Position numbers and translations under genes: made by a program
Notes under the pieces: model-generated
What the model saw: only the letters and a program-made list of their open reading frames with translations
What the model was told of the DNA's origin: nothing
Databases searched by the model: none
In this document: positions 3,872 to 59,200 of the stretch, piece by piece
Position numbering within the stretch: position 1 is the stretch's first letter
Layout: each line of letters starts with the position of its first letter
Virus record (IMG/VR): IMGVR_UViG_3300022752_000033
Location: 17,711 to 81,710 of that record
Origin: a virus
Taxonomy: Duplodnaviria; Heunggongvirae; Uroviricota; Caudoviricetes
DNA length: 64,000 nucleotides
Reading direction: 5' to 3' (one strand)

Positions 3872-5168
3872 TAATTTCTTGTGGAATCTCTAAATTAGGA
3901 CACTCTTTCACATTAAGGAAAACTATATTAGGTAAACTAGCAATACAACCCGGAACTGTTCTTAATTTAGAGTTACCTTGAAGTGTTAAGAATCTAAGTT
4001 TTTTCAAATTACAAATTGATTCAGGAACACTATCAACACAATTTTCAAAATTTAAAAACTCTAAGTTTTGGAATCTGTCAATATCCTCAGGAATTGTAAT
4101 TATAATATCATTCCTGTCATTGTTTTTAATTTTAAGTGTTTCCAAAGAATCAGGTAAACTTTCAAACAAATCTTCAAGACCATAAAGTCCAATGAATTTT
4201 CCAATTGCTCCGTGACTAAAACTATCAATTTTCAAACTTTTTCCATTAATAGTTAATCCTTTCGCAAATTCAGGTTTAAAGAAATCTTTAAGTTCTGACA
4301 TTGGCCCGGTCAATAATTGAACCAAATCAACTGTGTGGTCGTGAACATCCATAAATTGATTGGATGGGAAATGGAATTGATATCTATCTGCAGGTAATCC
4401 ACTACTCTCCCCTCTCTTACCTTCCCATTGGTTAGGTATCACAACATATAACGGACCATCCTTAATATATTTTTCAAACCAATTAAGACCTGGTGAAGAC
4501 GTACACCATCTTGTTTCACCTTTACTTGGTTCAAGGTAATTACCACCATAGAAACAAGCTGCATCCTTACCAAGTTTACCTGTGTCTGAAATTTCAACAA
4601 CAGTCCACTTACTTCCTCTAAAAACAACATCACCACCCGGATGTTCGTAGGTTTCTGCCGCCGCTTTTTTCTCTTCTTTACTTGCTTTAGTTTTCTCTAA
4701 TGAGAAATCTTTAACCAACTCATAAAGAGATTGAACTGTTAATTTATTAATATCTCTACTTTCCTGTGGAATTCTGTTTTTAAATCTTTCAAACTTCTTT
4801 AAATCATTTGTAACTTTATACAAATCCTCAAGGAATGTTGATTGTGCCTGTTTTAACTCTCTATCATACATAGGAGTTCCTTTTTCAGCCTCCGTTGGAA
4901 TTGATAAATATTGTTTGATTAACCAAGTTACATACGAACCCGCTTTAACCTTTTCAAGGTCTCCCTTGTTATCTGTATTCAAATCAATATCGTTAAGATT
5001 AGTATTTGGGTCGGCTTTAACTAATTCATCGTAAACCTCCTTAGTCATAAGTGGTTTCAACTTCTTACCTTCCTTATTAATTAAAGGTTTGGTAACTTTT
5101 TCCAAATTAATTAAATACTTGGATTGCGATTCAAGAATAATGTTTTTTAAAATGCTTGTAAATTTCAT
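3813..5168 (-). CDS. leucine-rich-repeat protein (451 aa)
   Basis: C-terminal ~110 aa show consecutive LxxLxLxxN/C LRR units (LETLKIKNN..., LEFLNFENC..., LRFLTLQGN..., IVFLNVKEC...). The N-terminal 330 aa are unassigned. Confidence 0.5.
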   Translation of the reverse strand: MKFTSILKNIILESQSKYLINLEKVTKPLINKEGKKLKPLMTKEVYDELVKADPNTNLNDIDLNTDNKGDLEKVKAGSYVTWLIKQYLSIPTEAEKGTPMYDRELKQAQSTFLEDLYKVTNDLKKFERFKNRIPQESRDINKLTVQSLYELVKDFSLEKTKASKEEKKAAAETYEHPGGDVVFRGSKWTVVEISDTGKLGKDAACFYGGNYLEPSKGETRWCTSSPGLNWFEKYIKDGPLYVVIPNQWEGKRGESSGLPADRYQFHFPSNQFMDVHDHTVDLVQLLTGPMSELKDFFKPEFAKGLTINGKSLKIDSFSHGAIGKFIGLYGLEDLFESLPDSLETLKIKNNDRNDIIITIPEDIDRFQNLEFLNFENCVDSVPESICNLKKLRFLTLQGNSKLRTVPGCIASLPNIVFLNVKECPNLEIPQEISDNANDFGNGMWDFAEDED

Positions 5169-33210: not shown

Positions 33211-33631
33211 CTCAATGTTTCTACTTCTGAATATGCTGATTAAGTTAACATCTTCTAAGCACTCAATACGTGCAGTGATTAAATTATTACCAAAGCCGAT
33301 GACCCCGAACAGACGGAAACCGATTTCCCTCTGTTATCAGAAACCCTTGATAATCAAGCAAAAAGCCGTCTGAAAGCTCTTGCCGTTTTCAATTTTCGTT
33401 CCTAGAGGTGAGGCCTTTATCATCATCAAACAAACAAACTATTTACTATACGTTTCCTAAATCAGCATATAATGCAGATGCAGGCATCATTAAGTTAACA
33501 TCACAGCAGGAAGTTCATTTTCGTCTATTATTCCTCTTTGGTCTTTTCCTTACCCCTTACCACCTACATTGCCATTCTGATGTTACTGTCAGATGCTTAC
33601 TATATTACTATAGAGTAGATGATACATTAAG

Positions 33632-33765
33632 CAGCCAGGGTTGGACTTGAACCGAATACCGTTCAAGACGGATTAGACAACCTTACGACGCAACGGCCAC
33701 CCTAGTATCGGTAACCGCCAATCTTGGGGATTCGGGAACCACTCCCTCATTACGCCCACCTGACT
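33632..33765 (-). ncRNA. tRNA-like structured RNA (about 134 nt), non-canonical
   Basis: Shares the 5' leader AATAGTCAGGTGG with the two tRNA-like genes below and ends in GGTTCAAGTCC...CCTGGCTG. No clean cloverleaf could be drawn by hand. Confidence 0.25.
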
Positions 33766-33889
33766 ATTTTTAAGAACTTAAATGTGCTACCGTTACACTA
33801 ACCTTGGGTCTCGAACCCATATCTCCCGTTACCGGGTGTTTTACCACTTAAACTATCACCGGTGACTCGAACACCGGACTTTTTATGTG

Positions 33890-33989
33890 TAGTCAGGACA
33901 AGATTTGAACTTGTATGAAGTATCTTAGGCATATTTCGTCATGATTAATACTTCTCACCGTGTGCGTCTACCAATTCCGCCACCTGACT
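33890..33989 (-). tRNA. tRNA-like gene copy 2 (type-II-like D-arm, canonical T-arm, oversized central region)
   Basis: 5' AGTCAGG-TG-GCG-GAATTGGTAGA-CGC ... ACAAG-TTCAAAT-CTTGT-CCTGACT-A. The 7-bp acceptor is fully Watson-Crick. The central 50 nt do not form a standard anticodon arm. Confidence 0.4.
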
Positions 33990-33995
33990 ATTTAA

Positions 33996-34212
33996 TTATT
34001 TACTTTCTCTTCCATCACCATCAATATACAATACCTTTACAGGTTTTTCATCACCTAATATTACTATTGTATCATATTCACCATCTTCATTTACTTTACC
34101 CGTCCATCCTTTTTCTGTCGGCCAAATTTCATATCCATATTCATAACAAAGAGCATCAATTTTGTTAAGAAACTCTTCCATCTTTGGACTTATTTTATCT
34201 TCTCCCATATTT
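33996..34212 (-). CDS. small protein (72 aa) wedged between the two tRNA-like genes
   Basis: MGEDKISPKMEEFLNKIDAL...; fits exactly between the RNA 3' end at 34222 and the RNA 5' end at 33989. Confidence 0.4.
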
Positions 34213-34221
34213 TGTTTTTTG

Positions 34222-34315
34222 TAGCCAGGACAGGATTTGAACCTGTAAGCTTTTTGCCTTAACAAAGGTATCGGACAGAGAATCCAAAAGCGTCTACCAA
34301 TTCCGCCACCTGACT
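34222..34315 (-). tRNA. tRNA-like gene copy 1
   Basis: Identical 26-nt 5' end (acceptor plus D-arm) to copy 2. T-arm ACAGG-TTCAAAT-CCTGT and acceptor 3' strand CCTGGCT. The compensatory changes relative to copy 2 support a real RNA helix. Confidence 0.4.
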
Positions 34316-34516
34316 ATTTTAACAGCGTCACTACTATATGCAGTTACCTACCATATCCTTCCTTTCGTAAGTAAGTAGGAGATTTAAAAATCTCAATGGT
34401 ATGTTTTTGAGGATGAGAAATCCTCTGTGTTGCCTAAAGTCTGATACCTGTTCATTTAGTGATTTACTACCAGGTCAAATTACCTTTCCTTTCTCAAGGG
34501 AACAACACATTTATTT

Positions 34517-47934: not shown

Positions 47935-48261
47935 TTAAGGTATTTGTATTGTCGCTCTGTTAATTTCAGTGTTAAATATTACATTATTATCTATACCAAG
48001 TTCACTTAAAATCAATTGACTAACTTCTGATGTATTAATGTCTTCACGAACAATCACATCGTAGTTAGAAAATTCATCCCAATATCCCCAATAAAAACTA
48101 CCGTATATGTATACTTCTATTGTCCTGTTTAAATAACCATTTATATAATTTTTAATACCAATAAATTTTTGTTGCACATCGATTGGTAAATCATTAAATA
48201 ATTTTACCTGTCCTCTTCTGTCCCTTTCTCTGTTTTTATATATTACTTTTGTATATGTCAT
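47935..48261 (-). CDS. small protein with a nucleotidyltransferase-like GS...D motif (or fiber accessory)
   Basis: VYIYGSFYWGYWDEFSNYDVIV resembles the minimal nucleotidyltransferase hG[GS] ... [DE]h[DE] arrangement; weak. Confidence 0.25.
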   Translation of the reverse strand: MTYTKVIYKNRERDRRGQVKLFNDLPIDVQQKFIGIKNYINGYLNRTIEVYIYGSFYWGYWDEFSNYDVIVREDINTSEVSQLILSELGIDNNVIFNTEINRATIQIP

Positions 48262-48276
48262 ATTATTATTTTTTTT

Positions 48277-51200
48277 TTATGAGAATGATAATGTTGCTTG
48301 ATAAAATGAATTAACGTGGAATAATTTGTCAAGGGTTGTAAACACTAAACGTAAGGTATGGACAGTATTCGCAGGTAAAAGATATGGTGGTGGAATAATT
48401 ATTACAGGAACAATTGGGCCATCATTACATCCTAACCCTCCTCCAGGAGCCTGTCCATTTGAAACTTCTGCACCATCAAGAAAAAAGCTCATTCTATCAA
48501 ATCCGGTCGCCTGTAATTCACCTTGACCAAACCAAGTAAGATTTAAATTTGTATTTACAGGACCTACCGTTATTGTTGCAGTTGCAGTCGCTTCTTGCGT
48601 TATATCACAACCTCCCACCTGACAATTTAGAGATGGTGCAACATTAAATCTAATCGTTAAATTATCGGGTGATATGACCCACCCCGCCGATTGACAACCT
48701 GTTACACCTTCCGTATTTTTTGTTGTTGACCATACTAAACCTGACACAGGTAACGGTACTCTTGTAGGTGTAGGTGTTTTAGTTTTAGTTGGAGTCGCCG
48801 ACATAGTTGGTGTTTGACTAGCAGTTCTAGTAGGTGTGTTTGAAGCCGTTGGTGTTGGTGTTGAAGTTAATGTTGGCACCGAACAACATCCATTGAGTTC
48901 CGTGATTAAAATATCGCCAGAAATCGAATCCACATTCAAAGAACAAATTGTCGCACTACCTGATTTAGGAAACTCATCTGTCACTGTATCACCATAACAA
49001 TTAGTATAAGAATATCGCCCTAGATAAGGACCTGTTAAAAGATAAGAACAACATCTACCAGCACAATATTTTACATCACAAACTAAAGTTGGTGTTGGTG
49101 TTGCGGTTTTTGTCGGTGTTTGTGTTGCGGTTTTTGTCGGTGTTTGTGTTGTGGTTTTTGTTGGAGTTTGTGATGTTGTTCTCGTTGGAGTCGAAGTATT
49201 AGTCGGTGTTTGTGTTGGTGTCTGAGTTTGAGTTTGAGTTCTTGTTGCGGTATTAGTCGGTGTTTGAGTCAGCGTTTGTGCTCTAGTTGCGGTGTTAGTT
49301 GGAGTTTGCGTCGTAGTTTTTGTTGGTGTCTGTGTCGGTGTTTGAGTCCTTGTCGCAGTATTAGTTGGTGTTTGCGTCGATGTTTGTGTTGGTGTTTGAG
49401 TCCTTGTCGCAGTGTTTGTTGGTGTTTGCGTCGATGTTTTAGTTGGTGTCTGTGTTGGAGTTGCGGTATTTGTTGGTGTTTTAGTTGCAGTATTTGTTGG
49501 TGTCTGTGTTGGTGTTTGAGTTCTTGTTGCTGTATTAGTCGGTGTTTGCGTTGCAGTATTGGTAGGTGTTTTAGTAGTTGTTGCAGTATTTGTTGGTGTT
49601 TGTGTTGGAGTTTGAGTCCTTGTTGCGGTATTAGTCGGCGTTTGTGTTGTAGTATTTGTTGGTGTTTGTGTCGGTGTTTGGGTTCTTGTCGCAGTGTTTG
49701 TCGGCGTTTGTGTCGGTGTAGAAGTATTGGTTGCAGTATTAGTAGGTGTCTGTGTAGGTGTTTGAGTTCTTGTTGCAGTATTAGTCGCAGTTCTTGTTGC
49801 CGTATTAGTTGGTGTTTGAGTCGTAGTATTAGTAGGTGTTTGTGTTGGTGTTTTTGTCATTGTTGGTGTCTGAGTTTGTGTTACAGTTGGTGTTGGCGTT
49901 TTAGTAGGACAATTATATATATTAGTCGTACAATCAGGACATCCGGCCGATGGCGAAAGAATCGAACCGTTTCCATAAGTAATACTAGGAGGTGTCATAA
50001 ACTTATACGTCGCACAACCTACAAACCCATCCGTTCTAATATAGTAAGTTGCATCGACAACTGGTGTACCAAGCGTTAAGTCAACATTAAACCTTGAACC
50101 ATCACAACACGATTCCCACCCAAGAGTTGATATTGTTGGAGTTACAGTTGGTGTTGCTGTATTGGTTGGAGTTTGAGTTTTAGTTGCAGTATTCGTCGGT
50201 GTTTGAGTATTTGTAGGTGTTTTAGTTGGAGTTTGAGTTTTGGTCGCAGTATTTGTTGGTGTTTGTGTTGGTGTTTCAGTTCTTGTTGCAGTATTAGTCG
50301 CCGTATTAGTTGCGGTATTGGTTGGAGTTTGTGTTGCAGTGTTAGTCGGTGTTTGTGTAGGTGTTTGAGTTCTTGTTGCGGTACTAGTTGGAGTCTGTGT
50401 TGCAGTACTAGTTGGTGTTTTAGTCGCAGTATTTGTTGGGGTCTGTGTTGTGGTATTAGTTTGTGTTTGAGTTTGAGTTGTAGTATTAGTTGGTGTTTGA
50501 GTTTGAGTTGTAGTATTAGTTGGTGTTTGAGTTGTAGTATTAGTTGGTGTCTGTGTTGAAGTTTTTGTTGGTGTTTGAGTTCTTGTCGCAGTATTTGTCG
50601 GTGTTTGAGTCGCAGTTTGAGTCGGTGTTTGAGTCGCAGTTTGAGTCGGTGTTTGAGTCGCAGTTTGAGTTGGGGTATTGGTAGGTGTTTGGGTTGGCGT
50701 TTTTGTGTTTGTTGCAGTATTTGTGGGTGTTTGAGTTGGTGTCTGTGTTGGAGTTTGAGTTCTTGTCGCAGTATTGGTTGCAGTATTTGTAGGTGTTTGA
50801 GTTCTTGTCGCAGTATTAGTTGGTGTAGGTGTTTGAGTTGGCGTTTTAGTTGGTGTCTGTGTAGGACACGGAAAATCTAATTTACAAGCATCACAATTTC
50901 CAAAATCAACAACACCTATCGCACCATTTGTATATGTCAATCCTGGCGGTGTCATAATTTTATATGTCGCACAACCGGTGAACTGTGTTGATGTTACATA
51001 ATACACTCTACCTTCAACAAGAGTTGTTGGTATAGTTAATATTAAAGAGAACCGAGTACCATCACAACAAGCCTCCCAATTAAGACTTGAAATGGTAGGT
51101 GTTACAGTTGGTGTTGACGTATTGGTTGGAGTATTGGTTGGTGTTTTAGTATTAGTTGGTGTCTGCGTATTTGTCGTAGTATTGGTTGGAGTTTGAGTTG

Positions 51201-53160
51201 AGGTTTTAGTCGTTGTTGGAGTATTAGTTGAGGTATTAGTAGGTGTCTGTGTTGCAGTATTTGTAGGGGTATTTGTTGCAGTATTTGTCGGCGTTTGTGT
51301 TGCGGTTTTAGTTGGTGTTTGAGTTTTAGTAGCCGTATTTGTAGGTGTTTGAGTTGTCGTATTTGTCGGCGTATTTGTAGGGGTTTGAGTTGGTGTTTGG
51401 GTAGACGTATTCGTTGCCGTATTAGTTGGTGTTTGAGTTTGCGTTGTAGTATTAGTTGGAGTTTGAGTAGGTGTTTGTGTTGCGGTTTTAGTTGGTGTTT
51501 GAGTACTAGTTGGTGTTTTAGTTGCAGTATTTGTTGCGGTATTAGTTGGTGTTTGTGTAGGTGTTTGAGTTCCAGTTTTGGTTGGTGTTTGAGTTTGCGT
51601 TGGTGTTTGTGTTGCGGTTTTAGTCGGTGTTTGAGTTTGTGTAGGAGTTTGTGTTCCGGTTTTAGTCGGTGTTTGAGTTAATATTTCCCCATTTGTTGGT
51701 GTGTTTGTAGGTGTTGTAGTATTAGTTGGGGTTTGAGTTTGTGTTGCAGTATTAGTTGGGGTTTGAGTAGGAGTTTGAGTACTAGTTTTTGTTGGTGTCT
51801 GTGTGTTTGTTGGTGTCTTAGTTTGCGTAGATGTTTTGGTCGGCGTTTGAGTTCCGGTTTTAGTTGGAGTGTTTGTTGGTGTCTTAGTTTGAGTTGCAGT
51901 ATTAGTTGGGGTCTGTGTTGGTGTCTTAGTTTGCGTAGATGTTTTGGTCGGCGTTTGAGTACTTGTCGCAGTATTAGTCGGGGTCTGTGCCGGTGTTGAG
52001 GTATTTGTTGGAGTTTGTGTTGGAGTTGAAGTATTGGTTGGTGTTTGAGTTGGAGTCTCCGTATTTGTTGGTGTTGGTGTTGGGCTTTCCGGTATACCAT
52101 ACCTAAAATCCCAAACATAGTAAATATTTGTATTTGGCCCAGCATAATCAAACGGAACATTCGCACAGAAATAATCAACACCATTTATATTTTGTTGATA
52201 AACAGTTGTACTACTCAATGTCGGTATTAAAGTTTGAAATTGAGCCTTTGTATATTCAACCGTACTACTATAATACCACATCGTATTACCATACGATAAA
52301 TTAAATGGTAGATTAGCAATGCCAATAAGATTTTTAGGTATCTGTAATCTAACCGTATCACCATAATTCGGTAAATTAAATTGAGTGTTTGAATTAGAAT
52401 AATAACCAACTTTCCATCCATCCAAACTATTTGGAGTATTATTAAAACTATACCCAAGACCTGAGTTGGTAAGACTACTAAAAGATAAATCGTTAATATA
52501 TTTACCAACATCCGGTAAATCATTTAAAACACTTCCGTATACTTTAGGGGGTACTAGATATGTTGCAACTCCGTTTAGGTCACAATTCGGTAAATTTCTA
52601 CCAATACTACATACCGTAGTTGCAGTATAATCACCATAATAATCTATTACAGTGACCGGATAACTACCCGAAGATACATTAAATAATATTTTTTCTCTAA
52701 CTCCATTCGCCCACAAAACATTATATGGACTTGTTCCACCCGTAATATTAATCCTAATTATACCACCAGTATTTGTAAAAACATCTACCTCTTGTAAAAT
52801 CTCACAACTAATACCCATTGGATAATTTGTATAAATTTCACACGTATTATAATCATACGTGACAATTTTACCTGTTAAAGTAGATGGAGTTGTTGGATTG
52901 GTTGGTGTTGGGGTATTTGATGGGGTTAACGTTGGTGTTGGGGTATTTGATGGGGTTAACGTTGGTGTTGGTGTTGGGGTGGATGTGGGGCACTGTGTTA
53001 TGACTTCATTGTCATTTAAAATAGTTACGTTTTGATATACACTATTTAAATCAAAAGTAATTATATATGGCAAGGCGGTATCACCATAATTAAAATTACC
53101 GCAACAATCCGTATAAACGTAATTGTTAAGAGTAATACCTGAAACACAATATACCGCCAT
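48277..53160 (-). CDS. giant modular Thr/Pro-rich surface/fiber protein (1627 aa), paralog of 53218..60909
   Basis: A 330-aa N-terminal domain conserved with the neighbour (MAV(Y/S)CVSGITLN..YTDCCGN). Multiple Cys-rich modules (CCDG(T/S)RF...GCATYK(I/F)MTPP; CD(V/E)(K/I)YC...CCSY) separated by hundreds of residues of TPTQTPTNTAT linker. Confidence 0.7.
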   Translation of the reverse strand: MAVYCVSGITLNNYVYTDCCGNFNYGDTALPYIITFDLNSVYQNVTILNDNEVITQCPTSTPTPTPTLTPSNTPTPTLTPSNTPTPTNPTTPSTLTGKIVTYDYNTCEIYTNYPMGISCEILQEVDVFTNTGGIIRINITGGTSPYNVLWANGVREKILFNVSSGSYPVTVIDYYGDYTATTVCSIGRNLPNCDLNGVATYLVPPKVYGSVLNDLPDVGKYINDLSFSSLTNSGLGYSFNNTPNSLDGWKVGYYSNSNTQFNLPNYGDTVRLQIPKNLIGIANLPFNLSYGNTMWYYSSTVEYTKAQFQTLIPTLSSTTVYQQNINGVDYFCANVPFDYAGPNTNIYYVWDFRYGIPESPTPTPTNTETPTQTPTNTSTPTQTPTNTSTPAQTPTNTATSTQTPTKTSTQTKTPTQTPTNTATQTKTPTNTPTKTGTQTPTKTSTQTKTPTNTQTPTKTSTQTPTQTPTNTATQTQTPTNTTTPTNTPTNGEILTQTPTKTGTQTPTQTQTPTKTATQTPTQTQTPTKTGTQTPTQTPTNTATNTATKTPTSTQTPTKTATQTPTQTPTNTTTQTQTPTNTATNTSTQTPTQTPTNTPTNTTTQTPTNTATKTQTPTKTATQTPTNTATNTPTNTATQTPTNTSTNTPTTTKTSTQTPTNTTTNTQTPTNTKTPTNTPTNTSTPTVTPTISSLNWEACCDGTRFSLILTIPTTLVEGRVYYVTSTQFTGCATYKIMTPPGLTYTNGAIGVVDFGNCDACKLDFPCPTQTPTKTPTQTPTPTNTATRTQTPTNTATNTATRTQTPTQTPTQTPTNTATNTKTPTQTPTNTPTQTATQTPTQTATQTPTQTATQTPTNTATRTQTPTKTSTQTPTNTTTQTPTNTTTQTQTPTNTTTQTQTQTNTTTQTPTNTATKTPTSTATQTPTSTATRTQTPTQTPTNTATQTPTNTATNTATNTATRTETPTQTPTNTATKTQTPTKTPTNTQTPTNTATKTQTPTNTATPTVTPTISTLGWESCCDGSRFNVDLTLGTPVVDATYYIRTDGFVGCATYKFMTPPSITYGNGSILSPSAGCPDCTTNIYNCPTKTPTPTVTQTQTPTMTKTPTQTPTNTTTQTPTNTATRTATNTATRTQTPTQTPTNTATNTSTPTQTPTNTATRTQTPTQTPTNTTTQTPTNTATRTQTPTQTPTNTATTTKTPTNTATQTPTNTATRTQTPTQTPTNTATKTPTNTATPTQTPTKTSTQTPTNTATRTQTPTQTSTQTPTNTATRTQTPTQTPTKTTTQTPTNTATRAQTLTQTPTNTATRTQTQTQTPTQTPTNTSTPTRTTSQTPTKTTTQTPTKTATQTPTKTATPTPTLVCDVKYCAGRCCSYLLTGPYLGRYSYTNCYGDTVTDEFPKSGSATICSLNVDSISGDILITELNGCCSVPTLTSTPTPTASNTPTRTASQTPTMSATPTKTKTPTPTRVPLPVSGLVWSTTKNTEGVTGCQSAGWVISPDNLTIRFNVAPSLNCQVGGCDITQEATATATITVGPVNTNLNLTWFGQGELQATGFDRMSFFLDGAEVSNGQAPGGGLGCNDGPIVPVIIIPPPYLLPANTVHTLRLVFTTLDKLFHVNSFYQATLSFS
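48780..52090 (-). repeat. degenerate short-period coding tandem repeats (ACN-CCN-ACN-[CAA/AAT/AAA]) encoding T-P-T-Q/N/K linkers
   Basis: Hundreds of 6-18-nt near-repeats; on the plus strand seen as ggtgtttgagttggtgtttgtgt. Confidence 0.8.
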
Positions 53161-53217
53161 AGTTTATCTTTAAATTATAATTTTTAATTTATTATTATAA
53201 ATAACCGTTCATTTATT

Positions 53218-56200
53218 TTATAAAACTCCTCCATCAACTATCGTCCAACCGTACCCTCCACTTCCCGTACTTCCTGTTAATAAATTTTTACCCGCTTGTC
53301 CTGCCGCGGTGTATTTAATTGTACTGAATAATATACTTAAGTTAGGTTTAACCGTCTTACCACCTGAAGTCCATCCTGTGTATATATCTGTCAAATTAAC
53401 CGCAGAATAGTCGGAAGATGTTTTACCCTGCATAAAATTACTAACATTTGTTACACCTGAAATATTCCAATTTCCTATAGGTTGATTAAATGCTGTTGCA
53501 TAACCAAACATAGTAGTCATATTTGTAACATTAGATGTATTCCAATTTCCTATTGGTTGGTTAAATGTAGTTGCACTATAGAACATAGTATTCATAGCAG
53601 TAACCGCACTTGTCGTCCACCCTGATATTGATGGTGAATTTAAATTATTAAAAGCGGTTGCTTGATAGAATAGAGATATCATATTTGTAACTTTAGATGT
53701 ATCCCAACTTCCAATATTTTGATTGAATGCCGATGTTGCTCGGAACGTATAACTCATATCAGTAACCTTAGAAACATTCCAATTTCCTATTGGTTGATTA
53801 AATACAGTTGCACCCCAGAACATTTCACTAATGTTAGTAACCGCGCTTGTCGTCCATCCTGATATTGATGTTGAGCCGGAGTTGTTAAACGATGCAGCAT
53901 CTTTAAACATAGCTCCCATATTTGTAACTTTAGATGTATTCCAATTTCCAATTGGTTGATTAAATGATGTTGCACCATTAAACATCGTACCCATAAGTGT
54001 AGCCGCACTTGTCGTCCACCCTGATATTGATGGTGAATTTAAATTATTAAAATTTGTTGCAAATTGGAATAATCCCGTAAAGTCCGTAACTTTAGATGTA
54101 TCCCAACTTCCAATATTTTGATTAAATTGTGTTGCGCTTCTAAAAGTACCATTTAAACTTACAACATTAGAAACATTCCAACTTCCAATTGGTTGGTTAA
54201 ACGAAGTTGCACCTCGGAACATAGCATTCATATTAGTCGCAGCACTTGTCGTCCATCCTGATATCGATGTTGAACCAGAGTTATTAAATGCCGTTGCACC
54301 ATTAAACGTACTAGTGAGTGTATCTATATTAGATAAAATCCAACTTCCAATATTTTGGTCGAATTTTATATTTGTTTGGAATGTACTATTCATTCTTGTT
54401 ACTTTTCTTACATCCCACGTTCCAATTGGTTGGTTAAATGGAGTACTTCTAAACATAGAATCCATATTGGTAACCGCGCTTGTCGTCCATCCTGATATTG
54501 ATGGTGAATTTAAATTATTAAATGCAAGGGCGGCATCAAACATATTATTCATTGCCACAACATTACTAACATCCCAACTTCCAATGTTTTGATTAAATAA
54601 TCCCGCACCATAGAACATATAACCCATACCAAGATTACCGGTAACATTTCTAACGTTCCAACTTCCAATTGGTTGATTAAACGCATCTGCACCATAGAAC
54701 ATATAACTCATGTCAGTAACTGCAGAAGTAATCCAAGTATTTATTGAATTACTATTACCATTATTAAATGCTCTTGCTTCACGGAACATAGCACTCATAT
54801 TAGTAACCTTAGACGTATCCCAACTTCCAATTGGTTGATTAAAAGTAACCCCACTATAGAACATATAACTCATGTCAGTAACTGCACTTGTCGTCCATCC
54901 TGATATTGATGGTGACCCAGAGTTATTAAATGTTGGTACGTTTTTAAACATACTATTCATATTCGAAACCTTACCAACCGACCAATTTCCTATATTATTG
55001 TTAAACGTTACACTACCTTCAAACATAGAACTCATACCCGTAACTTGTGACATATTCCATGAATTAATTCCACTAACACTTGTCAATGACACACACTCTC
55101 TAAATGCTGAATTAAAGTTTGTTGTTCCTTGGGTATCTAAAATATCCGTTACTCCAGTTAATATTAAATTTCTACTACCATATAAATAAGAACCTTCGTT
55201 AGTTCCAAACCTTAAACTACCCCACTTAGTAATCTCCTTTAATTTTCTACTATCACCCGCATTATTAAATCTCCATCCGGTTAAACCACCCCGTATTGCT
55301 GAGATTGTTATTGTATATGCACTTGGTGTTGCGTAGGTATGTGTAATACCTGAACTAGGCGATGATGCAACATATTGAGAAGTACCATCACCCCAATTTA
55401 CAGAACAATTATAACTTCCACTTGAAATGAACGGTAAGACAAAATTACTATATGTAGAACTACTTACAGGCGGATATGTTCCTGACGATATAACACAGTT
55501 ACCAAACGTATCAGCACTATATGGTAAAATTTCATATACCACAGTTGTTGTGTCAGGTTGATAAAGTAATACGGTTGCCGTTGGGAATGTTGTTGCAATA
55601 TTTGTTCTAACACTACTTAATGATTTTGGTGTTGTTAATGTAACATTCGTTGAGACTCCATTATAAATAAATGACATTACTGTTGTATTTGTAATATCAG
55701 AATTATTAAAATTATAATATGAATATGTATTTCTTGTGTCAATAAGAGCAACAAAATCATTTATAGGTTGTGTAGGTGTAGGAGTTTGTGTTGTTGTATT
55801 TGTTGGTGTTTGAGTTGAAGTTTGTGTTGGTGTTTGTGTTCTAGTGTTGGTTGGAGTTTGAGTTGAAGTTTGAGTTGGTGTTTGAGTATTTGTAGGCGTA
55901 TTTGACATTGTTGGTGTTTGTGTTGCGGTTTGTGTTGGTGTTTGAGTCGCAGTTTGAGTTGGTGTATTAGACATTGTCGGTGTTTGTGTTGAAGTTTGAG
56001 TTGGCGTATTAGACATTGTCGGTGTTTGAGTTGAAGTTTGAGTTGGTGTTTGTGTTGAAGTTTGAGTTGGTGTATTAGACATTGTCGGTGTTTGTGTTGT
56101 TGTATTGGTTGGAGTTTGAGTCGCAGTTTGAGTTGGTGTATTAGACATTGTTGGTGTTTGTGTTGAAGTTTGAGTTGGTGTATTAGACATTGTCGGTGTT

Positions 56201-59200
56201 TGAGTCGCAGTTTGAGTTGGTGTTTGTGTTGGTGTTTCAGTATTGGTTGGAGTTTGTGTTGCAGTATTTGTAGGCGTATTAGACATTGTTGGTGTTTGAG
56301 TAGTTGTATTGGTTGGTGTTTGAGTAGTTGTGTTAGTCGGTGTTTGAGTATTAGTCGCAGTATTAGTTGGTGTATTAGTTGTCGTATTGGTTGGAGTTTG
56401 TGTTGCAGTTTGAGTTTGAGTCGCAGTTTGAGTTGGAGTTTGTGTAGTTGTGTTTGTTGGAGTTTGTGTAGTTGTGTTTGTTGGAGTTTGAGTATTAGTT
56501 ACCGTATTGGTTGGTGTTTGAGTAGTTGTCTTTGTTGGAGTTGGAGTTATCAATTCCACATTAGTTGGAGTATTAGTTTGTGTTGCGGTATTAGTTGGTG
56601 TTTGTGTAGTTGTGTTAGTTGGTGTTTGAGTAGTTGTGTTAGTTGGTGTTTGAGTACTAGTCGGTGTTTTAGTCACAGTATTTGTTGGTGTTTGAGTTGT
56701 AGTATTAGTCGCAGTAATAGTTGGTGTTTGTGTTGCAGTAATAGTTGGTGTTTGTGTTGCAGTATTTGTCGGGGTTTGTGTTGCAGTATTTGTTGGTGTT
56801 TGAGTTTGAGTTGAGGTATTAGTTGGTGTCTGTGTAGTTGTGTTAGTTGGTGTTTGAGTACTAGTTGGTGTTTTAGTCGCAGTATTTGTTGGTGTTTGAG
56901 TATTAGTCTGCGTTTGAGTTGCAGTATTAGTTGGTGTTTGAGTAGTTGTATTTGTCGGTGTCTGCGTTTGAGTTGCAGTATTAGTTGGTGTTTGAGTAGT
57001 TGTGTTAGTCGGTGTATTAGTTGTCGTATTGGTTGGAGTTTGTGTATTAGTCGAAGTATTTGTTGGTGTTTGAGTTCCCGTATTAGTTGGAGTTTGTGTA
57101 TTGGTCGAAGTATTTGTTGGCGTTTGAGTCCCCGTATTAGTTGGTGTTTGAGTACTAGTGGGCGTTTTAGTTGTTGTATTTGTAGGCGTTTGAGTTGCAG
57201 TATTTGTTGGTGTTTGAGTTGCAGTATTTGTAGGTGTTTGAGTTGCAGTATTTGTTGGCGTTTGAGTTGTCGTATTTGTTGGTGTTGGTGTTTGAGTCGT
57301 TGTTGTTGTTGGTGTTGGTGAAGGACAAGGATAATTTGTTATGCAAGATTCACAACTTGTTTCCCCACTTATTCCCAAATAATTATAAACCGTACCGGTA
57401 GTTATGGTGTTGATGCACTTAGCACAAAATATGAATCCTTCAGCAGTTGCAACCGAGTAGAAATTTCCAACAATAGGTGCTGAACCTCCAGGAATTGCCT
57501 GAACTCTAAAACTAACCCCAAAACAACATCCACTAAATGAACCAACCACCGGAACTAATGGTGTTGTTGTTGGTGTTTGAGTTGTTGTGTTAGTAGGTGT
57601 TTGAGTATTTGTTGGAGTATTTGTTGCGGTTTTAGTTGGTGTTGGGGTATTGGTTGATGTTTGTGTTGCGGTATTGGTTTGCGTATTTGTGGGTGTTTGA
57701 GTAGCAGTATTAGTCGGAGTTTGAGTTGTAGTGTTTGTAGGTGTTTGAGTATTGGTTGATGTTTGTGTTGTAGTGTTTGTTGGAGTTTGAGTCGTAGTGT
57801 TTGTGGGCGTTTTCGTATTTGTTGGTGTATTAGTTGAAGTACTTGTTGGTGTATTAGTTGCCGTATTTGTTGGTGTTTGAGTATTGGTTGATGTTTGCGT
57901 ATTTGTTGGTGTTTGTGTTGCAGTATTTGTCGGGGTTTGTGTTGCTGTATTTGTCGGTGTTTGAGTATTGGTTGATGTTTGCGTATTTGTTGGTGTTTGA
58001 GTTGAGGTAGTTGTTGGTGTTTGAGTATTTGTGGTAGTATTAGTCACAGTATTTGTAGGTGTATTTGTTGGTGTCTGTGTATTAGTTCTGGTATTTGTAG
58101 GAGTATTAGTTGGTGTTTTTGTATTTGTTGCAGTATTAGTCGGTGTTTGTGTTGAGGTTTTGGTCGGTGTTGGAGTTACTACAGTACAACAACCAACAAG
58201 CGTAATTGTTGGTTCAGTTCCAATATAAATAAATGAAGTTATTCCACCTGTTACACAAACATTTACGATTACCGGACCTACCGCACCTCCAATTTCATTA
58301 TAACAATCAAAATATGTTACTGAAGTTCCGTCAGGAACAATTAAATTATATTCACAACAACCACCGGCAGAACAATATGTTTCATCACAAATAAACGTAG
58401 ACGTTGGTGTTTGAGTTGGAGTTTGGGTTGGAGTTGATGTTTTGGTTGCTGTGTTAGTCGGTGTTGATGTTTTGGTTGCAGTATTTGTTGGTGTATTGGT
58501 TGCGGTGTTAGTCGGTGTTGATGTTTTGGTTGCAGTATTAGTTGGTGTATTGGTTGCGGTGTTAGTTGGTGTATTTGTAGGTGTTTTTGTTTGGGTTTGG
58601 GTAGGTGTTTGCGTCGGTACGGCACAACAACCAATCAATTCGGTTAGTGTTCCTCCAACAATTGATGCAGACCTATTAGAACAAAAAGATATAATACCTG
58701 AAGGTGTGAAGTTATCATTTATCGTCACACCATAACAATTCTCATATGAGTACGGTTGTCCCGCCGTTCCGTATAAATTATACGAACAACAATTAGTTTG
58801 ACAATAAATTTCATCACATGTGAAGGTTGGTGTTGGTGTCGATGTAATGGTATTAGTTGGTGTGTTGGTTGCGGTTTGTGTTTTAGTAGCAGTATTTGTT
58901 GGAGTGTTTGTTGGTGTTTGTGTATTTGTTGGCGTTTGTGTACTAGTTGGTGTTTTAGTTTGTGTACTAGTTGGTGTTTGTGTATTCGTTGGTGTTTGTG
59001 TACTTGTTGAAGTAACCGTATTTGTTGGTGTATTTGTATTAGTTGGGGTTTGTGTTGGAGTTTTTGTTGCCGTATTAGTTGGAGTATTAGTTGTCGTATT
59101 AGTAGGTGTCTGCGTTGGGGTTTGTGTTGAAGTTTTGGTTGGTGTACTAGTTGATGTTGAGGTATTAGTTGCGGTATTTGTCGCAGTATTTGTTGGAGTT

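What the first reader, a model, noticed from the sequence alone, without database searches (positions are those of the whole stretch)
33632..34315. Cluster of tRNA-like genes with canonical acceptor/T-arm/D-arm but oversized, unrelated central regions
Two RNAs (34222-34315 and 33890-33989, minus strand) share an identical 26-nt 5' end, AGTCAGG-TG-GCG-GAATTGGTAGA-CGC, a Leu/Ser/Tyr-type D-arm. Both end with a perfect T-arm and acceptor: ACAGG-TTCAAAT-CCTGT-CCTGGCT versus ACAAG-TTCAAAT-CTTGT-CCTGACT. The differences between copies are compensatory on both strands of the helices, which argues for selection on RNA structure. Between D-arm and T-arm lie 43 and 50 nt that are unrelated to each other. 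That is too long for an anticodon arm plus variable arm, and I could not fold a standard anticodon stem. A third element (33632-33765) reuses the same 5' leader. The interval 33766-33889 holds two more TΨC-like hairpins (CCGGTG-TTCGAGT-CACCGG and TGGG-TTCGAGA-CCCA). Possible explanations are tRNAs with small inserts or introns in the anticodon region, degenerate or permuted tRNAs, or tRNA-scaffolded small RNAs. A 72-aa ORF is wedged exactly between two of them.
Basis: seen in the sequence. Interest (0 to 1): 0.6.

Follow-up and report, generated by a model that had tools for sequence, protein, structure and literature searches.

The report
Phage tRNA frames carrying swapped-in RNA modules
The three odd "tRNAs" belong to a large, apparently undescribed family from uncultured phages (probably of Bacteroidota), in which one highly conserved tRNA-Leu-like frame has its anticodon and variable arms replaced by any of about 100 unrelated but individually conserved RNA modules, so these are very probably tRNA-processed small RNAs rather than decoders.

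Summary
E1 (34315-34222), E2 (33989-33890) and E3 (33765-33632), all on the minus strand, share a tRNA-like frame.

E1 and E2 are members of a phage-specific family. The exact 26-nt 5' end occurs in at least 119 IMG/VR contigs. It is nearly always closed by ACAGGTTCGAATCCTGTCCTGACTA, with 23-311 nt in between that fall into about 100 unrelated classes.

- The frame's helices covary (0/500 shuffles).
- Its flanks (U-1, C74-W75-A76) match those of 254 genuine tRNA genes in the same phages.
- The conserved part holds all known E. coli LeuRS determinants. The replaced part is what leucylation does not need.
- Cargos are conserved (92-98% identity) inside flanks at random-level identity.
- Anticodon calls are artefacts: ARAGORN real elements and 16.4/118 with shuffled cargo.
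- Intron, permuted-tRNA and tmRNA models fail.
- E3 belongs to a sister, also modular, family. The E2-E3 spacer is tRNA debris.

Best reading: non-decoding "tRNA-chassis" small RNAs, matured like tRNAs and possibly leucylated, with the cargo as effector. Cargo function is unknown. I found no description in Rfam 15, GenBank phages or the searched literature.

The parts
34222..34315 (-). E1: chassis RNA, 94 nt. Frame 5' half is 34315-34290, cargo is 34289-34247 (43 nt, including positions 26 and 48), T arm + acceptor 3' strand + discriminator A is 34246-34222.
   Evidence: Rfam tRNA 41.5 bits. The same cargo occurs in 9 other viral contigs with unrelated flanks: cargo 98.4%, frame 92.4%, flanks 60% identity. 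The ARAGORN 'Glu-CUC' call carries no weight.
33996..34208 (-). 70-aa ORF between E1 and E2. It starts 13 nt after E1, and E2 starts 6 nt after its stop codon.
   Evidence: ORF list and sequence. Homologues in L096/L098, there also followed by a chassis element, and in L172 at 63% identity. No Pfam hit.
33890..33989 (-). E2: chassis RNA, 100 nt. Frame 5' half is 33989-33964, cargo is 33963-33915 (49 nt: a single-stranded ACACGGUGA, then a 7-bp stem GAAGUAU/AUACUUC that ends 2 nt before the T stem), T arm + acceptor + discriminator A is 33914-33890.
   Evidence: Rfam tRNA 38.0 bits with no anticodon arm aligned. The cargo class is shared with L152/L153 (the same contigs as L188/L189), with two compensated pairs in the cargo stem.
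33766..33889 (-). Spacer made of tRNA debris. It contains a T-arm-like hairpin (33877-33859), an acceptor-less tRNA-like piece with a GUAA tetraloop where the anticodon loop would be (33855-33804), and a 5' fragment of a tRNA-Gly(UCC)-type gene (33801-33784).
   Evidence: Sub-threshold Rfam tRNA match, 22.7 bits, model positions 8-63. Two 18-nt exact matches: one to a genuine tRNA-Gly in L066, one to the D arm of another insert-bearing tRNA-like gene in L123. Otherwise not conserved in the 189 loci then held.
33632..33765 (-). E3: member of a sister tRNA-like family, 134 nt. It has the same closing stem and a T arm (with one C.A mismatch here), a hairpin in the variable-arm position (CCGU-CUUGA-ACGG), and a branched domain in place of the D and anticodon arms. 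Discriminator is G.
   Evidence: 96% identical to L128 and 93-94% to L129, while the adjacent 159-aa gene is 81-82% identical at the DNA level and the flanks are near random level. Consensus fold with a covarying inner hairpin. The family has 78-80, 96 and 132-134 nt versions. No ARAGORN or Rfam hit.
34405..34508 (-). Bipartite conserved non-coding motif about 90 nt upstream of E1 (GTGTTGTTCCCTTGAGAAAGGAA ... CAACACAGAGGATTTCTCATCCTCAA). Probably a leader, promoter or processing element of the tRNA / tRNA-like transcription unit.
   Evidence: Single copy in the window. 25 copies in related loci, often 0-5 nt upstream of a chassis element or a genuine tRNA.

Best explanation
E1 and E2, and in a sister lineage E3, are non-decoding 'tRNA-chassis' small RNAs.

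The frame is derived from a type-II tRNA-Leu and consists of the acceptor stem, a 3-bp D stem with the AAUUGGUAGA loop, the T arm and discriminator A73. It is kept almost invariant. [quoted passage not shown]

Proposed mechanism:
1. The elements are transcribed together with neighbouring small early genes or tRNAs. About 10% have their own Bacteroidota-type promoter.
2. They are excised by RNase P at the 5' end and by the same 3'-end pathway as the phage's genuine tRNAs, and the CCA end is completed.
3. They fold into the tRNA L-shape, which gives precise ends and stability.
4. The frame is probably still a LeuRS substrate.
5. The cargo is under the strongest constraint and is the effector, acting in trans on a partner that remains unidentified.

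Shown here: the family, the frame's covariation, the tRNA-type flank signature, cargo conservation, and the absence of a real anticodon arm.

Inferred: processing, CCA addition, stability, leucylation, and trans action of the cargo.
For: Family and distribution:
137 elements have the matching 3' end, which was not part of the query. Centres are 23-311 nt, median 62.
- 118 distinct elements give about 100 unrelated cargo classes.
- The full frame (both ends) is absent from 50,697 GenBank phage records. Among 185,579 species genomes it occurs on only 5 short MAG contigs.

Frame structure:
- Cloverleaf covariation on 64 distinct frames: T stem 99.4% paired with 4 of 5 covarying pairs, acceptor stem 97.5% paired, 0/500 shuffles reach the observed values.
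- Boundaries are sharp: position 26 is A/U in 96% and position 48 is U in 97% of classes.

Processing context:
- Element flanks: T(-1) 83%, A73 86%, C74 96%, position 75 A/T, A76 78%.
- 254 genuine tRNAs from the same loci: T(-1) 67%, C74 87%, position 75 A/T, A76 78%.
- TAnnTTTG box ending 2-12 nt upstream: 12 observed against 1.1 expected.

Not decoders:
- ARAGORN real elements and 16.4+-2.3 with shuffled cargo.
- Anticodon assignments are scattered.

Cargo is selected:
- Cargo identity 0.92 against flanks 0.61/0.64, where unrelated sequence gives 0.59 (20 pairs).
- E1-class cargo is 98.4% identical against 92.4% for the frame.
- E3 is 96% identical against 82% for the neighbouring gene.
- Compensated cargo stems.
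- Cargos fold better than shuffles: mean z = -0.89, p = 5e-13.

Leucine identity:
- PMC9976931 states that E. coli tRNA-Leu identity rests on A73, A15-U48, G18G19, A20a and the D/T-loop contacts.
- The same review states that variants lacking the anticodon arm and long variable arm remain active. This matches the conserved/variable partition measured here.

Engineering precedent:
- tRNA scaffolds with the anticodon stem-loop replaced by an insert are processed and accumulate in E. coli (PMC3753655).
Against: - There is no expression, end-mapping or charging data. Processing and stability are inferred from sequence context only.
- 10% of copies have G73, and the review lists G73 of tRNA-Ser as an antideterminant against LeuRS. 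Leucylation therefore cannot be universal.
- Sequence-level conservation of the acceptor stem is not required by RNase P or RNase Z and remains unexplained.
- No cargo target was found:
  - no shared motif;
  - no complementarity to downstream start regions;
  - no complementarity to E. coli rRNA;
  - no recurrent neighbouring protein.
- High cargo identity inside unrelated flanks could partly reflect recent horizontal spread of whole elements rather than selection.
- The 5' half of the frame was the search key, so its invariance is partly by construction. The E1-class search likewise fixed 14 nt of the cargo.
- The window copies have no promoter or terminator of their own.
Confidence: 0.6

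Rival explanations
1. Pure mRNA 'punctuation' signals (t-elements). The tRNA-like frame exists only to recruit RNase P and RNase Z, which cut polycistronic early transcripts into defined mRNAs. The centre is filler that merely has to fold.
For: - Tight packing between small ORFs in the window: 13 nt before the ATG of the 70-aa ORF and 6 nt after its stop.
- 73 of 137 elements have an ORF start within 120 nt, and many of these are 13-30 nt away.
- The window copies have no promoter or terminator of their own.
- The conserved parts include everything the processing enzymes recognise, and the flanks match those of genuine tRNAs.
- Presence/absence polymorphism between close relatives.
Against: - Filler should drift. 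Instead cargos are 92-98% identical where flanks are at random level, and E1's cargo is more conserved than its frame.
- Cargo stems are compensated.
- About 10% of elements have their own promoter.
- E1-class copies sit inside plain tRNA arrays with no ORF to punctuate.
- Genuine tRNAs with many different acceptor stems are processed in the same phages, so one fixed sequence is not needed.
- This model can coexist with the main one.
Confidence: 0.15
2. Decoys or pseudo-substrates for tRNA-directed host factors. Candidates are defence nucleases that cut anticodon or variable loops of type-II tRNAs, LeuRS, or toxins that act on the acceptor end. The intact frame binds the factor and the altered centre resists or traps it.
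For: - The frame keeps the tRNA-Leu body while the arms that such nucleases cut are replaced.
- Precedent from an abstract only: Septu cleaves the variable loop of tRNA-Tyr, and phage T6 escapes through its tRNA-gene region (PMC13096335).
- The elements lie in accessory, fast-turnover regions typical of anti-defence genes.
Against: - A decoy needs one good centre, not about 100 separately conserved ones.
- No defence or anti-defence protein is linked to the elements.
- Nothing tested here bears directly on binding.
- This is a special case of the main model (cargo or frame acting in trans) rather than a true alternative.
Confidence: 0.12
3. Genuine decoding tRNAs with unusual anticodon arms, small introns or expanded loops. 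An example would be a Leu-charged reader of GAG for E1, or suppressors.
For: - Rfam tRNA scores are above the gathering threshold for E1 and E2.
- ARAGORN calls E1 as Glu-CUC.
- E1-class copies lie in tRNA arrays.
- The E1 hairpin sequence is invariant.
- LeuRS ignores the anticodon, so a mis-sense decoder is chemically possible.
Against: - ARAGORN's call rate equals that of shuffled cargo.
- Anticodons are scattered over nearly all amino acids and stop, and 'introns' sit at arbitrary positions.
- E1's loop would have U37, a 2-nt linker after the D stem, and a 9-nt unpaired tail in its variable region (by inspection).
- E2 and E3 have no anticodon arm at all.
- Centres reach over 100 nt with no intron family detected.
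Confidence: 0.05
4. DNA-level elements. They could be small mobile cassettes, or recombination or integration hot-spots whose conserved ends are recognised as DNA, with the RNA fold incidental.
For: - Whole elements are islands of identity in unrelated flanks.
- Presence/absence varies at one syntenic slot, and different classes occupy the same slot.
- A-rich direct repeats flank the L129 insertion when compared with L125 (by eye).
Against: - Compensatory changes preserve RNA helices in the frame and in cargos.
- Tertiary-contact bases of the tRNA fold (G18G19, T loop, A15-U48) are conserved.
- The flank signature is the same as that of ordinary tRNA genes.
- No transposase, integrase or homing endonuclease is linked to the elements.
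- Mobility and an RNA function are not mutually exclusive.
Confidence: 0.06
5. Decaying tRNA pseudogenes with no function.
For: The spacer between E2 and E3 really is tRNA debris. E3 in the window has a C.A mismatch in its T stem and G73.
Against: Family-wide purifying selection and covariation. Hundreds of copies in diverse phages.
Confidence: 0.02

Closest known systems
Engineered 'tRNA scaffold' for recombinant RNA expression (Ponchon and Dardel; described in PMC3753655)
   Same: The acceptor stem, D arm and T arm are kept and the anticodon stem-loop is replaced by an arbitrary structured insert. The chimeras are recognised by cellular tRNA-processing enzymes and protected from degradation. 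This is the architecture seen here.
   Different: It is man-made and built on human tRNA-Lys3 or E. coli tRNAs, and the insert is closed by the anticodon stem. Here the arrangement is natural and Leu-type, the variable arm is replaced as well, there is usually no closing anticodon stem, and about 100 cargo classes are evolutionarily conserved.
Phage T4 stable RNAs 'species 1' (rnaC) and 'species 2' (rnaD) in the tRNA gene cluster
   Same: They are small stable phage RNAs encoded next to tRNA genes. rnaC ends in a T arm (CCGGG-UUCGAAU-CCCGG) followed by an acceptor-like strand.
   Different: - There is no Leu-type D arm.
- rnaC's closing stem is internal, with a 5' extension.
- rnaD has no T arm.
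- Neither reaches an Rfam tRNA score; the best is tRNA-Sec at 17.5 bits.
- No frame-plus-exchangeable-cargo family is known for them.
- No sequence similarity to the window turned up in the phage database search.
tmRNA (SsrA)
   Same: It has a tRNA-like acceptor/T-arm domain with the anticodon region replaced by a large structured insert. It is built on an identity (Ala) that does not depend on the anticodon, and it is charged without decoding (established knowledge; abstract of PMC3929946).
   Different: tmRNA has G3:U70 alanine identity, a tag-peptide ORF, four pseudoknots and an SmpB partner. Here the acceptor stem is A1-U72/G2-C71/U3-A70, most cargos are too short for a tag ORF, and ARAGORN finds no tmRNA.
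Bacterial type-II tRNA-Leu
   Same: The D arm is, from my own knowledge, that of E. coli tRNA-Leu; the literature string search was only consistent with this and the papers were not opened. The D loop also matches the genuine phage tRNA-Leu genes. A73, the A15-U48 Levitt pair, G18G19 and the T loop are all kept.
   Different: There is no Leu anticodon arm and no canonical variable arm. The acceptor stem starts with A1-U72 and differs from the genuine tRNA-Leu genes of the same phages, which begin GCYYRRG. Rfam scores are 31-47 bits against 50-77 for genuine tRNAs.
Other tRNA-like non-coding RNAs: bacterial YrlA (Y RNA-like), mascRNA, gammaherpesvirus tRNA-miRNA chimeras, plant mitochondrial t-elements
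   Same: They use a tRNA-like fold to recruit tRNA-processing enzymes or tRNA-binding proteins for a non-decoding purpose (abstracts of PMC4201824 and PMC1920247; the remainder is my own knowledge).
   Different: None has a single fixed chassis with many exchangeable inserts at the anticodon/variable-arm position. In YrlA the RNA's open ends are at the opposite end of the tRNA-like module. No Rfam family other than tRNA matches here.

Membership tests
Canonical tRNA (Rfam RF00005) | Score at or above the curated gathering threshold of 29 bits | tested here: met
   E1 scores 41.5 bits and E2 38.0 bits. E3 has no hit even at E<=10. The scores come from the acceptor, D and T arms; the anticodon arm is skipped as a local insertion.
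Canonical tRNA (Rfam RF00005) | Acceptor stem, D arm and T arm with conserved tertiary bases, maintained by covariation | tested here: met
   On 64 distinct frames, 92.8% of cells are paired, 9 pairs show double changes, and 0/500 shuffles reach this. G18, A21-equivalent, T54 and A58 are invariant.
Canonical tRNA (Rfam RF00005) | 5-bp anticodon stem with a 7-nt loop (U33, purine 37) at the canonical position, giving a consistent anticodon | tested here: not met
   ARAGORN real elements and 16.4+-2.3 with shuffled cargo. Anticodons are scattered. E1's loop has U37 and a 2-nt linker. E2 and E3 have no such arm.
Intron-containing tRNA (group I or protein-spliced) | Conserved exon sequences that form an anticodon arm once an insert at a fixed position is removed; for group I, an intron fold | tested here: not met
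   Sequence is variable from position 27 onwards. ARAGORN -i gives intron positions 32-41 and lengths 2-85 nt, with anticodons for nearly all amino acids and stop. No intron family was found in the window or in 14 loci.
tmRNA | tRNA-Ala-like domain (G3:U70), tag-peptide reading frame, pseudoknots | tested here: not met
   Position 3:70 is U-A or U-G. ARAGORN in tmRNA mode finds none in 120 sequences. There is no Rfam tmRNA hit.
tRNA-Leu identity set (E. coli LeuRS substrate) | A73 | tested here: met
   A in 101/118 elements, G in 12, C in 3, T in 2. E1 and E2 have A; E3 in the window has G, while its copies in L128 and L129 have A. The determinant itself is as stated in PMC9976931.
tRNA-Leu identity set (E. 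coli LeuRS substrate) | A15-U48 Levitt pair, G18G19, A20a, and the T-loop contacts U54:A58, G18:U55, G19:C56 | tested here: met
   A15 and G18 are invariant and G19 is at least 90% conserved in 64 frames. U48 is present in 97/100 classes. The T loop is TTCRANT. This is sequence-level evidence only.
tRNA-Leu identity set (E. coli LeuRS substrate) | Actual aminoacylation with leucine | not testable with these tools
   This needs in-vitro charging with host LeuRS or in-vivo charge mapping.
Natural analogue of the engineered tRNA scaffold (works-like claim) | Processed at both ends by the tRNA maturation machinery | tested here: inconclusive
   The flank signature matches that of 254 genuine tRNA genes from the same phages: U-1, C74, W75, A76. 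No RNA end data are available.
T4 species 1/2 stable RNAs | Sequence or structural homology to rnaC or rnaD | tested here: not met
   rnaC shares only a generic T arm plus an acceptor-like strand; rnaD shares neither. Blastn with a spliced frame query (both conserved ends joined by N) against GenBank phages listed no T4-like record.

The most novel reading that the evidence does not exclude
Uncultured phages, probably of Bacteroidota, use a natural, combinatorial 'tRNA chassis plus cargo' system. One leucine-accepting frame is matured and charged by host enzymes. It displays a library of more than 100 interchangeable structured RNA modules that move between phage genomes as self-contained units. 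The modules act as effectors, for example as decoys or inhibitors of host defence or translation factors, or as adaptors that bring a leucyl end to non-ribosomal targets. This would be a new class of phage-encoded RNA effectors and the natural counterpart of an RNA-engineering tool.
Probability: 0.25. Interest if true: 0.9.

Novelty: new variant of a known kind. Interest (0 to 1): 0.78.

Why it matters
tRNA-like non-coding RNAs are known, but only as isolated cases such as tmRNA, T4 species 1 RNA, YrlA and mascRNA. This is a whole family with a fixed tRNA-Leu-type frame and a very diverse set of inserts that are each under purifying selection. It is spread through many uncultured aquatic phages and is missed or mislabelled by standard tRNA finders.

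If the RNAs are processed and stable, they are a large reservoir of unexplored phage RNA effectors. They would also show that evolution arrived at the 'tRNA scaffold' trick used in RNA biotechnology.

If they are leucylated, they add a second natural example, after tmRNA, of a charged tRNA mimic built on an identity that does not depend on the anticodon.

On the practical side, ARAGORN and tRNAscan-type calls on such elements, with odd isotypes, 'introns' or 'suppressors', should be treated as artefacts in viromics. This matters for claims of recoding and for host prediction from viral tRNAs.

Tried and rejected
- Intron-containing tRNA: ARAGORN -i gives scattered anticodons and arbitrary intron positions. 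Rfam finds no introns or ribozymes in the window or in 14 loci.
- tmRNA or permuted tRNA: no calls. By inspection, the spacer pieces cannot form acceptor stems.
- Real anticodon arms: the call rate equals the shuffled control.
- A uniform closing-stem or pseudoknot architecture for cargos: only weak signals, 5.63 vs 5.09 bp and 5.18 vs 4.80 bp (p=0.008), so I did not rely on it.
- Cis-regulation of the downstream ORF by pairing with its start region: none (p=0.37).
- A common protein-binding motif in cargos: none.
- Complementarity or mimicry towards rRNA, with E. coli as proxy: none (p=0.51 and 0.73).
- A dedicated neighbouring protein: immediate neighbours are diverse small ORFs. Within whole loci, no family is present in more than 11 of 119.
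- Relatives among cultured phages: none by blastn of the 2-kb region or of the spliced frame.
- A host tRNA-Leu origin for the exact frame: the 26-mer occurs in only 5 short MAG contigs among 185,579 species genomes.
- Homology to T4 rnaC/rnaD: none.
- Sigma-70-type promoters and intrinsic terminators around E1-E3: not above chance on the coding strand.
- tRNA-handling enzymes among the larger ORFs of the window: none seen.
- Literature: six searches found no description of such a family.
Full report
**1. The observation**

On the minus strand the interval reads as follows:
- a 159-aa gene (34996-34517);
- a conserved bipartite non-coding motif (34508-34405);
- E1 (34315-34222);
- a 70-aa ORF (34208-33996);
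- E2 (33989-33890);
- a 124-nt spacer (33889-33766);
- E3 (33765-33632).

E1 and E2 pass the Rfam tRNA threshold at 41.5 and 38.0 bits. The model aligns only the acceptor, D and T arms and skips the centre. They share the exact 26-nt 5' end. Their T stems differ by a compensated pair (ACAGG/CCUGU against ACAAG/CUUGU).

E3 shares the closing stem and the T arm but has another 'D' region and matches nothing in Rfam even at E<=10. Exactly three copies of the signature occur in the 64 kb, where chance predicts about 0.01-0.06.

**2. It is a large family**

Almost every copy is followed by ACAGGTTCGAATCCTGTCCTGACTA, a 3' half that was not part of the query, after 23-311 nt (median 62) of sequence. 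The 118 distinct elements fall into about 100 classes with mutually unrelated centres.

The full frame is absent from 50,697 GenBank phage records. Among 185,579 bacterial and archaeal species genomes it appears on only five short MAG contigs: two binned as Flavobacterium and one as Chitinophagaceae. So it is not a copy of a host tRNA-Leu gene.

Two indirect observations point to Bacteroidota hosts, and this remains an inference:
- the MAG labels above;
- an 11-fold enrichment of the Bacteroidota -7 promoter box TAnnTTTG ending 2-12 nt upstream of the element (12 observed, 1.1 expected).

The window itself is a low-GC phage (about 32%) with all long ORFs but one on a single strand. It encodes primase, exonuclease, an SPFH protein, an SbcCD-like nuclease, a Dam methylase, DnaJ, its own sigma-70-family factor and giant DUF285-repeat proteins.

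**3. The frame is a selected tRNA fold derived from tRNA-Leu**

On 64 distinct frames the cloverleaf is 92.8% paired. Nine pairs show changes on both sides, the T stem is 99.4% paired with four of its five pairs covarying, none of 500 column shuffles reaches these values, and slid registers collapse.

The D arm (GCGG-AAUUGGUAG-ACGC) is, from my own knowledge, that of E. coli tRNA-Leu. The literature string search was only consistent with this, and I did not open those papers. The D loop also matches that of the genuine phage tRNA-Leu genes. Those genuine genes in the same contigs have different and more variable acceptor stems.

The limits of conservation are sharp. Position 26 is A or U in 96 of 100 classes. 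Position 48 is U in 97 of 100, where it pairs with the invariant A15. Everything in between is free.

According to the tRNA identity review (PMC9976931):
- E. coli leucine identity rests on A73, the A15-U48 Levitt pair, G18G19, A20a and the D/T-loop contacts;
- the anticodon and the long variable arm are not identity elements;
- variants lacking both of those arms remain substrates.

The conserved/variable partition measured here matches that rule exactly. A73 is present in 86% of elements and G73 in 10%.

**4. The elements sit in a tRNA maturation context**

Elements have T at -1 (83%), A at -2 (75%), C at 74 (96% against a 17% background), A or T at 75 (C in only 3 of 118) and A at 76 (78%).

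The 254 distinct genuine tRNA genes called in the same loci show the same signature: T(-1) 67%, A(-2) 67%, C74 87%, position 75 A or T (C in 1 of 254) and A76 78%.

That U-1 is the context bacterial RNase P prefers is established knowledge. The shared, unusual 'CWA' tail argues that frames and real tRNAs use one 3'-end pathway. This is inference; no RNA ends were observed.

**5. They are not decoders**

ARAGORN of the 118 distinct elements. When the cargo is shuffled and the frame kept, it.4 +- 2.3. The calls are therefore produced by the frame alone, including 'tRNA-Glu(CUC)' for E1.

With introns allowed, 101 of 118 are called. The 'anticodons' then cover nearly all amino acids and stop codons, and the 'introns' start anywhere from position 32 to 41 with lengths of 2-85 nt. 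No tmRNA is found.

Rfam finds nothing but tRNA in the window or in 14 related loci. The frames score 31-47 bits where genuine tRNAs score 50-77.

**6. The cargo is the most constrained part**

Centres fold better than dinucleotide shuffles (mean z = -0.89, p = 5e-13, n = 97). In 20 pairs of elements from the same cargo class, the cargo is 92% identical. The 150 nt on either side are 61% and 64% identical, and unrelated sequence gives 59%.

For the window's own elements:
- **E1.** Its cargo recurs in nine other contigs with unrelated flanks. Cargo identity is 98.4%, frame identity 92.4% and flank identity 60%. The part of the cargo that was not in the search pattern is identical in all but one copy.
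- **E2.** Its cargo class recurs in two contigs with two compensated pairs in its 7-bp stem (GAAGUAU/AUACUUC against GAAGAGU/ACUCUUC).
- **E3.** It is 96% identical to its L128 copy, although the adjacent protein gene is only 82% identical at the DNA level.

Another class (L077/L086/L092/L128) shows two covarying pairs.

At the slot downstream of the 159-aa gene, 47 related phages carry different cargo classes, ordinary tRNAs or nothing. The closest relative, L125, has none. The elements are therefore self-contained, frequently gained or lost units whose content is preserved.

**7. E3 and the spacer**

E3 belongs to a sister family. It has the same acceptor/T-arm minihelix, a conserved core (GGCGUAAUGAGGG...CCCGAAUCC...GGUUGYYUA) and optional modules at two sites. 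This gives versions of 78-80 nt, 96 nt and 132-134 nt. In the long forms the large inner hairpin replaces a short AGUUAAAU segment, and that hairpin covaries between the window and L084. ARAGORN calls none of them.

The E2-E3 spacer is debris:
- 33801-33784 equals the 5' part of a phage tRNA-Gly(UCC) gene (L066);
- 33855-33804 is an acceptor-less tRNA-like piece;
- the D arm of that piece matches another insert-bearing tRNA-like gene with a different frame (L123).

The rest of the spacer has no relatives.

**8. What it most likely is and does**

The best-supported reading is a natural counterpart of the engineered tRNA scaffold, in which the anticodon stem-loop is replaced by an RNA of interest so that the chimera is processed and protected (PMC3753655). 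The elements are probably transcribed with neighbouring small early genes or tRNAs. About half lie within 500 nt of another element or tRNA, and many lie 13-30 nt upstream of an ORF. They would then be excised and CCA-completed like tRNAs and accumulate as L-shaped RNAs, with the cargo as the functional moiety.

The choice of a leucine frame is suggestive, because leucine is one of the few identities that do not depend on the anticodon. This is the same logic as the alanine identity of tmRNA, and it suggests that charging may matter. I put that at about 40%.

What the cargos act on is unknown. I found none of the following:
- a shared motif;
- pairing with downstream start regions;
- complementarity to conserved rRNA;
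- a recurrent neighbouring protein.

Rivals are listed separately. A pure 'punctuation' role explains the frame but not the cargo conservation. Decoy models are a sub-case of the main model. Decoding, pseudogene and purely DNA-level readings are contradicted by the controls.

**9. Novelty**

I found no match in Rfam 15 beyond tRNA, no cultured-phage relatives, and no description in six full-text literature searches. T4's rnaC and rnaD, the classical phage 'tRNA-cluster stable RNAs', are only loose analogues.

I file the finding as a new variant of a known kind (tRNA-like non-coding RNA). The unprecedented feature is one chassis with about 100 exchangeable, conserved cargos.

**10. Caveats**

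- The 5' half of the frame was the search key, so its invariance is partly by construction. The E1-class search likewise fixed 14 nt of the cargo.
- The samples are metagenomic contigs with short flanks.
- All steps after transcription are inferred from sequence.

Noticed in passing
window 34405-34508 (minus strand); L019, L020, L035, L038, L047, L062, L072, L078, L099, L110, L115, L125 and others: A bipartite conserved motif: GTGTTG-TTCC-CTTGAGAAA-GGAA, then 31-97 variable nt, then CAACAC-A-GAGGA-CTTCTCA-TCCTC-AA. There are 25 copies in the loci I hold, often 0-5 nt upstream of a chassis element or a genuine tRNA. GUGUUG pairs with CAACAC, and this covaries to GCGUUG/AACGC in L079. The first hairpin's loop (CUUGAGAA) is complementary to the second hairpin's loop (UUCUCA[AG]). 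There is no Rfam hit. It could be a structured leader or processing RNA, or a phage promoter; the window encodes its own sigma factor.
   Followed up: partly
window 33490-33527 (minus strand); L036 6041-6079; L058 4529-4578: A second recurrent non-coding motif, TAGACGAAAATGRAMTTCCTGCTGTGATGTYRACTYAAT, lies shortly downstream of chassis elements in three unrelated contexts.
   Followed up: no
254 genuine tRNA genes in L001-L178: The genuine phage tRNA genes do not encode CCA. They carry a conserved C74 followed by A/T (almost never C) and then A ('CWA'), and they have U at -1 and A at -2. This looks like a lineage-specific tRNA 3'-end maturation signal.
   Followed up: partly
L123 about 6352-6230 (minus strand): A different tRNA-like frame (acceptor AACCGAG/CUCGGUU, D arm GUUU-AAGUGGUA-AAAC, T arm GUGGG/CCCAC, A73, then CAAA) also carries an insert of about 27 nt where the anticodon loop should be, here closed by an anticodon-stem-like helix. 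Cargo-bearing is therefore not confined to the Leu-type frame.
   Followed up: partly
L128 about 4570-4660 and 4910-; L129; L078, L107, L090, L013: Very small hydrophobic ORFs of about 30-35 aa (for example MKIVLIIIGVMLIVKLAFFMADVHGKSPK and MLIIILGLFAFIILGFAWALSDDEIKEIKDRFK) repeatedly lie directly downstream or upstream of chassis elements. One such family was the largest cluster among immediate neighbours (6 members).
   Followed up: no
upstream or downstream of elements in L001, L010, L011, L034, L077, L094, L109, L110, L111, L112: Another recurrent short hairpin, TGACAGCTCGGAAAGACGAGC (stem GCUCG/CGAGC, loop GAAAGA, with covarying variants such as CAGCUGG.AAGACAGC), lies immediately next to chassis elements. 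It is not present in the window's interval.
   Followed up: no
window 48000-60000: The two giant minus-strand ORFs are 1627 aa and 2563 aa; the larger has seven DUF285 repeat matches. They lie in regions of extreme strand compositional skew (GC skew up to +0.6, AT skew down to -0.47), which suggests long low-complexity or repeat arrays.
   Followed up: no
L031 2067-2137; L069 7025-7102; L011 5644-5733: Chimeric genes combine the family's acceptor/T-arm half (ACAGGTTCGAATCCTGTCCTGACTAC) with other D arms. One of them is called as an ordinary 71-nt tRNA. This suggests recombination between tRNA genes and chassis elements, with the acceptor/T minihelix as the most persistent module.
   Followed up: no
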